From assembly GCF_965641715.1 (NCBI RefSeq), contig NZ_OZ282453.1: a DNA stretch of 64,000 nt; one strand, 5' to 3'. The position numbers were made by a program. Below, one piece after another: positions 34,501 to 37,500 of this stretch; position 1 is the first letter of the stretch, and each line of letters begins with the position of its first letter. This DNA comes from Escherichia coli (GTDB lineage Bacteria; Pseudomonadota; Gammaproteobacteria; Enterobacterales; Enterobacteriaceae).

Positions 34501-37500
34501 CGAAATGCTGAAAGAAGGTGCACAAGTGGATCTGACCGCGAACCAGTTAACGCTGGCGACCGCGAAACAGACATTAACTTATAAGCTGGCGGATTTAATG
34601 AATTAATAGCTGCCACAGCTCCCGGCGGCAAGTGACTGTTCGCTACAGCGTTTGCCGTTGGGTAATGCACACATCCCAATCGCCGTACCATCCAGTTGAC
34701 GGGCAACAGAAAGCGAACCGCCGATCATTGCACAATTTGCTTCTCCAATACTGGACATCGACGCTTTTAAACCTGGCGCTACATGCGCCGCAGTCGCCTG
34801 CTGAACAGGTTCACTACTACACGCCGACAACAATAAAGCGGCACACCCTACCCAAAACGCTGCTCGCATCTTTTCTTCCTCTGATCTTCAAGCCAAACGA
34901 CACCGCCATAAATAATAGGCAGCACAGAGGGCGGCGTCGAGAGCTGTCCTGCGCGTTGCCCCGCATTTTTACTTTTTTATGGCTATTTTTTTGCCCTCTG
35001 TTTGATCAAAACATTCATTACTCTGATGTGGGGGACACAAAAGCGAAAATGCAGAAGAAAGCCATTTGCTAAAATTGAAGGATTACTACTGGGCGCGCAG
35101 CAATTTCGTGCGCCCCTCATTTGCGCAATGTAAGGGTGTCATATGATTACTATTGACGGTAATGGTGCGGTTGCTTCGGTGGCGTTTCGCACCAGTGAAG
35201 TTATCGCCATCTACCCTATTACCCCCAGTTCCACGATGGCAGAACAGGCTGATGCCTGGGCCGGAAACGGCTTGAAGAACGTTTGGGGAGACACACCACG
35301 CGTGGTTGAAATGCAGTCGGAAGCGGGTGCTATCGCTACCGTGCATGGCGCTTTGCAGACGGGAGCCCTTTCAACATCGTTTACGTCATCGCAGGGTTTG
35401 CTGCTGATGATCCCGACGCTGTACAAACTGGCAGGCGAACTCACACCGTTTGTCCTGCATGTAGCGGCACGTACCGTTGCCACACATGCACTCTCTATTT
35501 TTGGCGATCATTCCGACGTCATGGCGGTGCGCCAGACGGGTTGCGCGATGTTGTGTGCGGCAAACGTCCAGGAAGCGCAAGACTTTGCTCTCATTTCGCA
35601 CATCGCGACGCTGAAAAGCCGCGTGCCATTTATTCATTTCTTTGATGGTTTCCGTACGTCCCACGAAATCAATAAAATTGTCCCGCTGGCCGATGACACG
35701 ATTCTTGATCTCATGCCGCAGGCCGAAATTGATGCTCATCGCGCCCGGGCGCTCAACCCGGAACATCCGGTGATCCGCGGTACGTCCGCCAATCCTGACA
35801 CTTATTTCCAGTCTCGCGAAGCCACCAACCCATGGTACAACGCGGTCTATGACCATGTTGAACAGGCGATGAATGATTTCTCTGCCGCGACAGGTCGTCA
35901 GTATCAGCCGTTTGAATATTACGGGCATCCGCAAGCGGAACGGGTGATTATCCTGATGGGCTCTGCCATTGGCACCTGTGAAGAAGTGGTTGATGAATTG
36001 CTAACCCGTGGCGAAAAAGTTGGCGTGCTGAAAGTTCGCCTGTACCGTCCCTTCTCCGCCAAACACTTGCTGCAAGCTCTGCCGGGATCCGTACGCAGCG
36101 TGGCGGTACTGGACAGAACCAAAGAACCCGGTGCCCAGGCAGAACCGCTCTATCTGGATGTAATGACCGCACTGGCAGAAGCCTTTAATAATGGCGAGCG
36201 CGAAACTCTGCCCCGTGTCATTGGTGGGCGCTATGGTCTTTCATCCAAAGAATTTGGCCCGGACTGTGTACTGGCGGTATTTGCCGAGCTCAACGCGGCT
36301 AAACCGAAAGCGCGCTTTACGGTTGGTATTTACGATGATGTGACCAATCTGTCACTGCCGTTGCCGGAAAACACCCTGCCAAACTCGGCGAAACTGGAAG
36401 CCTTGTTTTATGGCCTTGGTAGTGATGGCAGCGTTTCCGCGACCAAAAACAATATCAAGATTATCGGTAATTCCACGCCGTGGTACGCACAGGGCTATTT
36501 TGTTTACGACTCCAAAAAGGCGGGCGGCCTGACGGTTTCTCACCTTCGCGTGAGCGAACAGCCGATTCGTTCCGCTTATCTCATTTCCCAGGCTGATTTT
36601 GTTGGCTGCCACCAATTGCAGTTTATCGATAAATATCAGATGGCTGAGCGTTTAAAACCTGGCGGCATTTTCCTGCTCAACACGCCGTACAGCGCAGATG
36701 AAGTGTGGTCGCGCTTGCCGCAGGAAGTTCAGGCCGTGCTAAACCAGAAAAAAGCGCGCTTCTATGTGATTAACGCAGCGAAAATCGCCCGCGAATGTGG
36801 CCTGGCGGCCCGTATTAATACCGTCATGCAGATGGCTTTTTTCCATCTGACGCAAATTCTGCCTGGCGATAGCGCCCTCGCAGAATTGCAGGGTGCGATT
36901 GCCAAAAGTTACAGTAGCAAAGGCCAGGATCTGGTGGAGCGCAACTGGCAGGCTCTGGCGCTGGCGCGTGAATCCGTAGAAGAAGTTCCGTTGCAACCGG
37001 TAAATCCGCACAGCGCCAATCGACCGCCAGTGGTTTCCGATGCCGCCCCTGATTTCGTGAAAACCGTAACCGCTGCGATGCTCGCCGGGCTTGGTGATGC
37101 CCTCCCCGTTTCGGCGCTGCCGCCAGACGGCACCTGGCCGATGGGCACTACACGCTGGGAAAAACGCAATATCGCCGAAGAGATCCCCATCTGGAAAGAG
37201 GAACTCTGTACCCAATGTAACCACTGTGTTGCCGCTTGCCCACACTCAGCTATTCGCGCAAAAGTGGTACAGCCTGAAGCGATGGAAAACGCCCCTGCCA
37301 GCCTGCATTCGCTGGATGTGAAATCGCGTGATATGCGCGGGCAGAAATATGTCTTGCAGGTGGCTCCGGAAGATTGCACCGGTTGTAACCTGTGCGTCGA
37401 AGTTTGCCCGGCGAAAGACCGTCAGAATCCAGAGATTAAAGCCATCAATATGATGTCGCGCCTGGAACATGTCGAAGAAGAGAAAATCAATTACGATTTC

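What the first reader, a model, noticed from the sequence alone, without database searches (positions are those of the whole stretch)
34600..34610. Convergent hslJ and ydbJ share overlapping stop codons
The stop codons of the plus-strand hslJ and minus-strand ydbJ overlap by 4 bp (TTAA), leaving no room for terminators between them. Their transcripts must overlap at the 3' ends, allowing antisense interference.
Basis: seen in the sequence. Interest (0 to 1): 0.15.

Follow-up and report, generated by a model that had tools for sequence, protein, structure and literature searches.

The report
Tail-to-tail hslJ–ydbJ gene overlap
Two small E. coli lipoprotein genes on opposite strands end on the same four bases (TTAA), a common, already annotated kind of overlap, and published RNA data already show that their transcripts run into each other.

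Summary
hslJ (+, 34184-34606) and ydbJ (-, 34603-34869) overlap by 4 bp, TTAA at 34603-34606. The two stop codons share only 2 bp.

It is already known. RefSeq K-12 annotates the same overlap, and the locus is in 5412 of 5426 complete E. coli genomes. TTAA-type 4-bp convergent overlaps are a described class, with 58 convergent overlaps counted in E. coli. A 2025 paper lists ydbJ-hslJ among 165 convergent "excludons", meaning gene pairs whose transcripts overlap.

No intrinsic terminator is found at the junction. Published data place Rho-dependent termination regions on both strands, and an expressed, Hfq-binding RNA antisense to ydbJ.

New here:
- In 79 Enterobacteriaceae species the pair is always tail-to-tail with almost no spacer (-7 to +13 bp in 75 of 79).
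- The exact 4-bp overlap is lineage-specific.
- A hairpin 15 nt past the hslJ stop lies inside ydbJ's last codons. It is more stable than synonymous recodings allow, and only on the hslJ-sense strand. There is no covariation and no U-tract.

Antisense interference is possible but untested. Ordinary; low interest.

The parts
34184..34606 (+). hslJ coding sequence (140 aa, META-domain lipoprotein; signal peptide ends ...LLMAGC, Cys17); stop TAA at 34604-34606
   Evidence: K-12 annotation; 100% identical protein in L001
34603..34869 (-). ydbJ coding sequence (88 aa, DUF333 lipoprotein; lipobox LLLSAC, Cys17); its stop TAA reads as TTA on the + strand at 34603-34605
   Evidence: the C-terminus ...CG[SN]Y-stop is at the same place in 79 species
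34603..34606 (.). 4-bp coding overlap TTAA, a palindrome that is a stop codon on both strands
   Evidence: TTAA is kept in Escherichia (L001, L002, L016, L074, L078). CTAG arose separately in Raoultella and one Enterobacter
34621..34662 (+). 18-bp hairpin in the hslJ-sense RNA, starting 15 nt after the hslJ stop and lying inside ydbJ codons 70-83. Its many G-U pairs make it weak on the ydbJ mRNA strand. No U-tract follows. Candidate 3'-end-protecting or pause hairpin of hslJ mRNA.
   Evidence: fold; -30.0 vs synonymous null -18.4 +/- 4.3, 0.55%; family mean z -1.84 vs -0.62 on the other strand; controls 0.02 and -0.67; 87.5% of cells paired but no covariation beyond column composition; p 0.07
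34659..34918 (+). C-rich, G-poor (rut-like) tract in the hslJ-sense read-through RNA, peaking at C/G 2.8-3.1 over 34815-34918. It coincides with the published Hfq aptamer antisense to ydbJ (about 34816-34919 after coordinate conversion).
   Evidence: above the 99th percentile of the window; PMC2887942; the old-to-new K-12 coordinate offset of about 1976 is from my own knowledge, +/- a few nt
34912..34940 (-). ydbJ promoter: -35 TCGACG, 17-nt spacer, -10 TATTAT. Both boxes are conserved across the family. A published ydbJ TSS maps to about 34898, and sigma-S holoenzyme binding is reported in the ydbK-ydbJ spacer.
   Evidence: PMC4447067; PMC5493296
34122..34149 (+). sigma-70-like promoter match upstream of hslJ (ATGACC-16-TAAAAT); consensus match only
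   Evidence: 4 sites found vs 2.7 expected in the region
34030..34050 (-). Best-scoring position (about 34038 = K-12 1441889, + strand) of a published Rho termination region for ydbJ-strand transcription, about 565 nt past the ydbJ stop and antisense to the ldhA 3' end. Resolution is hundreds of nt.
   Evidence: PMC7815308 supplementary file 2: reads upstream/downstream 80/17 untreated, 77/69 with bicyclomycin, Rho score 4.2, p 1.5e-6. The mapping is valid because there are no indels between the window and K-12
34170..34190 (+). Published Rho termination region on the hslJ strand (about 34179 = K-12 1441748, - strand), 5 nt before the hslJ ATG. Bicyclomycin raises reads over the next 800 nt (hslJ plus antisense ydbJ) from 72 to 176.
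   Evidence: PMC7815308 supplementary file 2
34081..34103 (+). 9-bp GC hairpin after ldhA with no U-tract. It marks the upstream boundary of the hslJ unit.
   Evidence: -18.4 kcal/mol, z -2.8

Best explanation
This is an ordinary 4-bp tail-to-tail overlap of two small lipoprotein genes.

How the overlap arises (shown, except the drift step, which is inferred). TTAA is a stop codon on both strands, so whenever the two reading frames drift together they end on it. The ydbJ stop is fixed across the family. The HslJ C-terminal tail and stop position vary, which gives -7, -4, 0, +1 ... +13 bp in different genera.

Termination (shown by scans and published data). The pair has had essentially no spacer throughout the Enterobacteriaceae, so neither gene has a terminator of its own at the junction.
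- ydbJ-strand RNA continues antisense into hslJ and is ended by Rho somewhere within about 0.5 kb.
- hslJ-strand RNA continues antisense into ydbJ.

Fate of the hslJ-strand RNA (inferred). It first forms a stable hairpin 15 nt past the hslJ stop. This hairpin probably marks the trimmed or paused 3' end of hslJ mRNA. The RNA then exposes a C-rich, G-poor, Hfq-binding tract over the ydbJ 5' end, where Rho probably ends it before ydbK.

Consequence. The two RNAs are complementary over tens to hundreds of nucleotides, which is a 'convergent excludon' in the operational sense. Whether this changes expression of either gene is unknown. Given weak expression signals, it is most likely of little consequence.
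For: Overlap and identities.

Known class: PMC2174442.

Presence in E. coli: 5412 of 5426 genomes. The 121-nt junction segment is at least 99% identical in 5395 of them.

Family survey: 79 of 80 loci have hslJ convergent to ydbJ (the one locus without it is cut short 26 nt past the ydbJ stop). Spacer counts are -7 (7), -4 (9), 0 (24), +1 to +13 (35), +43 (2), +74 (1) and +86 (1). The ydbJ stop is invariant in position and the HslJ tail varies.

No intrinsic terminator:
- The consensus scan finds as many sites as shuffled sequence does (4 vs 3.7), and none is convincing.
- My own scan finds none at the junction.
- No Rfam match.
- No Term-seq 3' ends are listed in K-12 1440700-1441899.

Overlapping RNAs: excludome list, ydbJ antisense RNA and Hfq aptamer, Rho regions on both strands.

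Hairpin and rut-like tract.
Against: - The ends of the two transcripts have not been mapped at nucleotide resolution in anything I could read. The Rho 'regions' come from 800-nt windows, so the true length of the overlap is uncertain.
- The Rho signal on the hslJ strand sits upstream of hslJ. It could reflect ldhA read-through rather than termination after hslJ.
- The hairpin shows no covariation beyond what conserved columns give (87.5% paired vs 87.1% in shuffles). RNAalifold keeps only 4 bp of it. Synonymous-site diversity there is only marginally reduced (p 0.07). It may be a by-product of the conserved peptide NGKRC...SLAAG and codon bias.
- Persistent lack of a spacer over a whole family could mean selection for coupling, which 'of little consequence' would underrate.
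Confidence: 0.75

Rival explanations
1. Functional excludon. The overlap is kept because the two genes regulate each other. Transcription of one (hslJ under heat or CysB control; ydbJ from a sigma-S-bound promoter) interferes with the other by polymerase collision or by RNase III cleavage of the RNA duplex. The long hslJ 3' extension would act as an Hfq-bound antisense RNA over the ydbJ ribosome-binding site.
For: - The pair is listed as a convergent excludon.
- The spacer is -7 to +13 bp in 75 of 79 species.
- An Hfq aptamer and an expressed antisense RNA lie over the ydbJ 5' end.
- The two genes appear to have different regulation: sigma-S binding is reported at the ydbJ/ydbK spacer, and CysB control of hslJ is from my own knowledge.
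Against: - No experiment shows reciprocal expression.
- The excludon call is purely coverage-based.
- The exact junction is not conserved (eleven different spacings from -7 to +13, plus rare 43-86 nt spacers), so the overlap itself is not under selection.
- Inserts of 43-86 nt are tolerated in four lineages.
- Read counts in the Rho data are low, at 60-80 reads per 800 nt, so collisions would be rare.
Confidence: 0.15
2. Embedded terminator. The hairpin at 34621-34662 is a working termination or pause element for hslJ, encoded inside ydbJ's last codons. It could be a collision-type 'overlapping bidirectional terminator' or a weak intrinsic one. RNA overlap would then be limited to about 60 nt, and the two genes could be packed without a spacer.
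For: - The hairpin is 18 bp. The 75-nt hslJ-sense segment containing it folds at -30 kcal/mol.
- Only 0.55% of synonymous recodings fold as well.
- The excess is strand-specific across 79 species: mean z -1.84, against -0.62, 0.02 and -0.67 in three controls.
- The rare Leu80 codon CTT is kept in 59 of 76 sequences and pairs with Lys73.
- Hairpins without U-tracts are described at bidirectional terminators of convergent pairs (10.1101/2022.10.23.513370).
- In E. coli, 21 of 58 convergent overlaps have a predicted terminator inside the partner gene.
Against: - No U-tract follows the hairpin.
- There is no matching structure for ydbJ-sense RNA, so it is not bidirectional.
- There is no significant covariation.
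- No Term-seq 3' end is listed there.
- An antisense RNA is detected over the ydbJ 5' end, 200 nt further on, so at least some hslJ-strand RNA passes the hairpin.
Confidence: 0.2
3. Annotation artefact. One ORF is not a real gene, or its stop is miscalled, so there is no true gene overlap.
For: Both genes are small and poorly characterised. The ORF list alone is not evidence of a gene.
Against: - Both products match Pfam domains well above the cut-offs.
- Both have lipoprotein signal peptides.
- YdbJ is 85-98% identical, with the same stop position, in 79 species. HslJ is found next to it in all of them.
Confidence: 0.01

Closest known systems
4-bp convergent (tail-to-tail) gene overlaps on TTAA/CTAA/CTAG/TTAG (Lillo & Krakauer 2007, PMC2174442)
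   Same: Opposite strands, 3' ends overlapping by exactly 4 bp on one of the four tetramers that are stops in both directions. It is one of the roughly 58 convergent overlaps counted in E. coli.
   Different: Nothing essential. This pair also keeps a near-zero spacer across a whole family, while the exact offset drifts.
Convergent excludons (ExcludonFinder, NAR 2025, PMC12288877)
   Same: Neighbouring convergent genes whose transcripts overlap. ydbJ-hslJ is explicitly in that paper's E. coli list of 165 pairs.
   Different: The defining consequence of classical excludons, mutually exclusive expression through interference or RNase III, has not been shown for this pair. The spacer here is -4 bp, against a mean of 95 nt for E. 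coli excludons.
Overlapping bidirectional terminators between convergent genes (Ju et al. 2019 SEnd-seq, as summarised in 10.1101/2022.10.23.513370)
   Same: A convergent pair with a hairpin lacking a U-tract close to the junction, where head-on polymerase collisions could occur.
   Different: The excess structure is on one strand only. It lies inside a coding sequence rather than in a spacer. ydbJ-strand termination is Rho-dependent in published data, whereas that class is Rho-independent.
Rho-dependent termination with 3' trimming back to a stem-loop (concept cited from Dar & Sorek 2018 in PMC7815308)
   Same: No intrinsic terminator. Read-through is bicyclomycin-sensitive on both strands. 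A C>G tract lies downstream of hslJ, and a stable hairpin just after the stop could be the trimmed end.
   Different: Neither the trimmed end nor the actual release site has been mapped for either gene.

Membership tests
4-bp convergent gene overlap | Two real protein-coding genes on opposite strands with facing 3' ends | tested here: met
   Pfam META and DUF333; K-12 annotation; both conserved in 79 species
4-bp convergent gene overlap | Coding sequences share exactly 4 bp, being [TC]TA[AG] | tested here: met
   TTAA at 34603-34606
Convergent excludon | Transcripts of the two neighbouring genes overlap | tested here: met
   Not measured by me. Reported in at least 50% of 58 RNA-seq samples (PMC12288877). 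Supported by the ydbJ antisense RNA and the Rho region about 565 nt past the ydbJ stop.
Convergent excludon | Overlap causes mutually exclusive expression (transcriptional interference and/or RNase III processing) | not testable with these tools
   No expression data for promoter or rnc mutants were found. This needs experiments.
Intrinsic (Rho-independent) terminator | GC-rich hairpin immediately followed by a U-tract downstream of each stop | tested here: not met
   The scan count equals the shuffle expectation (4 vs 3.7). The only site near the junction (34631..34610, - strand) has 7 pairs including G-U, with tail CTATTAATTC. The hairpin 34621-34662 is followed by UAAUGCACAC. The + strand hairpin 34918-34960 has its U-run 5 nt away and is simply the ydbJ promoter spacer, not conserved.
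Rho-dependent terminator | Read-through increases when Rho is inhibited | tested here: met
   From the literature only: Rho scores of 4.2 (ydbJ strand) and 2.6 (hslJ strand) with bicyclomycin (PMC7815308); 800-nt resolution
Rho-dependent terminator | C-rich, G-poor untranslated RNA (rut) upstream of the release site | tested here: inconclusive
   Clear for hslJ-sense RNA (C/G up to 3.1 at 34815-34918, above the 99th percentile). Only modest for ydbJ-sense RNA (C/G 1.6-1.7 at 34264-34161). Composition alone does not prove Rho loading.
Overlapping bidirectional terminator (collision type) | Hairpin in the overlap region that works for both directions, with sharp Rho-independent 3' ends for both transcripts | tested here: not met
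   Excess structure is found only on the hslJ-sense strand. No Term-seq ends are listed. The ydbJ strand is Rho-dependent.
Conserved structured RNA element | Compensatory base-pair changes beyond sequence conservation | tested here: not met
   Covariation score 0.150 vs 0.147 in shuffles (124 of 500 as high); 3 pairs with double changes vs 2.5 expected. RNAalifold keeps 4 bp. No Rfam hit.

The most novel reading that the evidence does not exclude
The near-zero spacer is maintained because hslJ's 3'-end hairpin is written into the antisense of ydbJ's last 20 codons through synonymous codon choice, including the rare Leu CTT. Beyond the hairpin, the hslJ 3' extension would be an Hfq-bound antisense RNA that covers the ydbJ start region. 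The pair would then be a conserved, asymmetric regulatory unit in which hslJ expression lowers ydbJ expression, across the Enterobacteriaceae.
Probability: 0.15. Interest if true: 0.35.

Novelty: already known. Interest (0 to 1): 0.12.

Why it matters
It matters little on its own. It is one of dozens of annotated convergent overlaps in E. coli and is already catalogued as an excludon.

Its modest value is as a clean test case. The pair has kept almost no spacer across a whole bacterial family. One gene's candidate 3' hairpin is embedded in the other's coding sequence. Hfq-binding and Rho data already exist for it. This makes it a convenient locus for asking whether such overlaps have any regulatory cost or benefit, or are simply tolerated when both genes are weakly expressed.

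Tried and rejected
1. Candidate + strand intrinsic terminator in the ydbJ-ydbK spacer (hairpin 34918-34960 plus U-runs). Rejected: the family alignment shows the conserved parts are the ydbJ -35 and -10 boxes, and the hairpin-forming spacer is not conserved.

2. Weak - strand hairpin 34631..34610 from the scan. It folds no better than shuffles (z -0.1).

3. Other hits of my permissive terminator scan, such as 34376-34332 on the - strand with an 18-nt loop. Not followed up. Atypical loops, chance-level counts, and no Term-seq ends.

4. Functional link by domain fusion (DUF333 + META). There were 163 distant YdbJ relatives. Ten multidomain relatives scanned with Pfam had Kazal, PD40, PdaC/DUF3298 or Cyt-b5 partners and no META. 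So there is no support for fusion, but the sampling was limited.

5. Spacers in Salmonella, Raoultella terrigena and Enterobacter sp. 10-1 as possible ancestral terminators. The folds are unremarkable apart from a REP-like 9-bp GC hairpin in L052.

6. Supplements of Dar & Sorek 2018, the 3'-UTR valve paper and ExcludonFinder are not held as text. Ju et al. 2019 could not be fetched.

7. Rfam: no match.
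Full report
**What is in the sequence**

The window around 34 kb is the E. coli ldhA-hslJ-ydbJ-ydbK region in reverse orientation to K-12:
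- ldhA, 33084-34073 (+)
- hslJ, 34184-34606 (+)
- ydbJ, 34603-34869 (-)
- ydbK, from 35143 (+)

The bases at 34600-34609 are gaaTTAAtag. hslJ ends AAT TAA, with the stop at 34604-34606. ydbJ ends TAT TAA on the other strand, with the stop at 34605-34603. The coding sequences therefore overlap by 4 bp (TTAA, 34603-34606). The two stop codons share 2 bp.

The products match Pfam META (HslJ, E 1.9e-25) and DUF333 (YdbJ, E 1.1e-12). Both begin with lipoprotein-type signal peptides ending in Cys17, read directly from the sequence.

**It is already annotated and belongs to a described class**

RefSeq K-12 MG1655 lists ydbJ 1441058-1441324 (+) and hslJ 1441321-1441743 (-), the same 4-bp overlap. The 901-nt locus is present at 95% identity or more in 5412 of 5426 complete E. 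coli genomes. The 121 nt around the junction are at least 99% identical in 5395 of them.

Lillo and Krakauer (PMC2174442) describe the jump at 4 bp in the length distribution of convergent overlaps. [quoted passage not shown] They count 58 convergent overlaps in E. coli. They also raise the question of where terminators go in such pairs.

The ExcludonFinder paper (PMC12288877) names ydbJ-hslJ among 165 convergent 'excludons' of MG1655. These are pairs whose RNA-seq-defined transcripts overlap in at least half of 58 samples.

**Related genomes**

A scan of one genome per species with YdbJ returned 80 loci, all with Enterobacteriaceae-type sequence; one (L005) sits in a Bacillales assembly and looks like contamination. 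In 79 of them hslJ is the convergent neighbour. The remaining locus is cut short 26 nt past the ydbJ stop.

The ydbJ stop is at the same codon everywhere. The end of HslJ moves. The distance between the coding sequences is as follows:

| Spacer (bp) | Species | Where |
|---|---|---|
| -7 | 7 | Kosakonia, Phytobacter |
| -4 | 9 | TTAA in Escherichia; CTAG independently in Raoultella planticola/ornithinolytica and one Enterobacter |
| 0 | 24 | |
| +1 to +13 | 35 | |
| +43 | 2 | Salmonella arizonae/diarizonae |
| +74 | 1 | |
| +86 | 1 | |

The exact 4-bp overlap is therefore a lineage-specific state of a drifting junction and is not conserved in itself. The tail-to-tail arrangement with practically no spacer is family-wide. 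The few longer spacers do not contain convincing terminators.

**How the transcripts end: what the scans and published 3'-end data show**

- The consensus scan finds as many terminator-like sites in 33-36 kb as in shuffled sequence (4 vs 3.7). None at the junction is convincing.
- There is no Rfam match.
- The supplementary tables of Adams et al. 2021 (PMC7815308) list no Term-seq 3' end between K-12 1440700 and 1441899.

**How the transcripts end: published Rho data**

The same tables list two Rho termination regions from bicyclomycin treatment.
- The first is at 1441889 on the + strand, which is the ydbJ strand and maps to window position about 34038. Reads upstream/downstream were 80/17 untreated and 77/69 treated, Rho score 4.2, p 1.5e-6.
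- The second is at 1441748 on the - strand, which is the hslJ strand and maps to window position about 34179. Reads were 64/72 untreated and 61/176 treated, Rho score 2.6.

The scores recompute correctly from the counts. The coordinate mapping is safe because the window and K-12 differ only by substitutions here. The resolution is coarse because the method uses 800-nt windows.

The data say two things. ydbJ-strand transcription is ended by Rho only after entering hslJ, up to about 565 nt downstream. Rho also limits RNA over hslJ plus antisense ydbJ.

**How the transcripts end: antisense RNA**

Lorenz et al. 2010 (PMC2887942) selected an Hfq-binding genomic aptamer antisense to ydbJ, at old coordinates 1,439,032-1,439,135. 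This is about window 34816-34919 using an offset of about 1976, which comes from my own knowledge. They detected the antisense RNA by strand-specific RT-PCR. It is on the hslJ strand and lies over the ydbJ start region.

In my composition analysis the hslJ-sense RNA is C-rich and G-poor from 34659 to 34918. The C/G ratio reaches 2.8-3.1 exactly over that aptamer, above the 99th percentile of the window. This is what a Rho loading region looks like.

**A hairpin inside ydbJ's last codons**

Fifteen nucleotides after the hslJ stop, the hslJ-sense RNA can form an 18-bp hairpin (34621-34662). Its G-U pairs become C-A mismatches on the ydbJ mRNA strand.

Evidence for excess structure, tested against recodings that keep the YdbJ protein and local codon usage:
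- The first 75 nt of hslJ-sense RNA fold at -30.0 kcal/mol, against -18.4 +/- 4.3 for the null. Only 0.55% of 2000 recodings fold as well.
- Across 79 species the mean z is -1.84, and 61% of sequences are below -1.64.
- The same DNA read as ydbJ mRNA gives mean z -0.62.
- The reciprocal test on the hslJ 3' end gives mean z 0.02 (ydbJ-sense RNA) and -0.67 (hslJ mRNA).
- The rare Leu80 codon CTT is kept in 59 of 76 sequences and pairs with Lys73.

Evidence against a selected structure:
- Pair counting shows 87.5% of cells paired, but shuffles of the same columns give 87.1%, so there is no covariation signal.
- RNAalifold retains only 4 bp.
- Synonymous diversity in the hairpin codons is only marginally lower than in the rest of the gene (0.61 vs 0.72, p 0.07).
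- No U-tract follows the hairpin.

I read it as a plausible 3'-end-protecting or pausing hairpin for hslJ mRNA. It is suggested by these tests, not shown.

**Most likely mechanism**

This is a passive, compact tail-to-tail junction. Each gene's polymerase runs into the other gene. Rho, rather than an intrinsic terminator, ends both transcripts. The RNAs are complementary over tens to hundreds of nucleotides.

- Shown: the overlap, its annotation, the family-wide compaction, the lack of canonical terminators, and, from papers, overlapping transcripts, an antisense RNA and Rho dependence.
- Inferred: the role of the hairpin, Rho loading on the C-rich tract, and the length of the duplex.
- Not shown by anyone: that either gene's expression affects the other.

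**Comparison with known systems and verdict**

The locus is a member of the 4-bp convergent overlap class; all features were tested and met. It meets the operational definition of a convergent excludon, but the functional criterion is untested. It is not an intrinsic terminator and not a collision-type bidirectional terminator: features of both were tested and not met.

The finding is already known and ordinary. The small additions made here are the family survey and the strand-specific hairpin. They would matter only if the pair proved to be a real regulatory unit, which I rate at about 15%.

Noticed in passing
window 34720-34840 (ydbJ); positions 34748, 34783, 34789: The window's strain carries rare ydbJ alleles, including Ser41->Ile at 34748. 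Only 3 of 5412 E. coli genomes are at least 99% identical over this 121-nt segment, whereas neighbouring 121-nt segments are at least 99% identical in about 5260-5395 genomes. The window differs from K-12 by 69 substitutions and no indels over 33000-38700.
   Followed up: partly
L003 and most non-Escherichia loci, about 75-90 nt upstream of the ydbJ start (about 2410-2425); E. coli equivalent about window 34950-34965: A palindrome GCGCATTTATGCGC just upstream of the ydbJ -35 box is conserved in Citrobacter, Enterobacter, Salmonella, Kluyvera and others but degenerate in Escherichia. It may be a regulator binding site in the ydbJ-ydbK divergent promoter region.
   Followed up: no
proteins P0084, P0136, P0167 (metagenome / Logan assemblies): These are chimeric ORFs joining the HslJ N-terminus to the YdbJ C-terminus, and the reverse. 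An inversion across the tail-to-tail junction would produce such products. They are probably assembly or library artefacts.
   Followed up: partly
proteins P0158, P0180, P0238, P0211, P0244 (distant YdbJ relatives): In distant relatives DUF333 occurs as 2-7 tandem repeats. It is combined with Kazal-type protease-inhibitor domains, PD40 propeller repeats, PdaC/DUF3298 or Cyt-b5. No META (HslJ-type) fusion was seen in the ten sampled.
   Followed up: partly
L005 (NZ_VLXZ01000060.1, 413 bp): A 413-bp contig in an 'Alkalicoccobacillus porphyridii' assembly is essentially the E. coli hslJ/ydbJ junction (97-100% protein identity). This is most likely contamination of that assembly.
   Followed up: no
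window 34081-34103 (+) and about 34179: ldhA is followed by a strong 9-bp GC hairpin with no U-tract. Published bicyclomycin data place a Rho termination region just downstream, 5 nt before the hslJ start, so ldhA may read through into hslJ when Rho is inhibited.
   Followed up: partly
L052 2768-2841 and L069 2768-2853: Two species (Enterobacter sp. 10-1, Raoultella terrigena) have related 74/86-nt GC-rich inserts between the two stops, palindromic in L052. They look like a REP-like element inserted at the junction.
   Followed up: partly
E. coli RefSeq collection: Five copies of the hslJ-ydbJ locus lie on records typed as plasmids, and a few genomes have two copies.
   Followed up: no
window 34330-34340 and 34586-34596: A perfect 11-nt inverted repeat (AAATCCGCCAG / CTGGCGGATTT) lies within hslJ, 245 nt apart. 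It could give long-range pairing in either transcript. The significance was not assessed.
   Followed up: no
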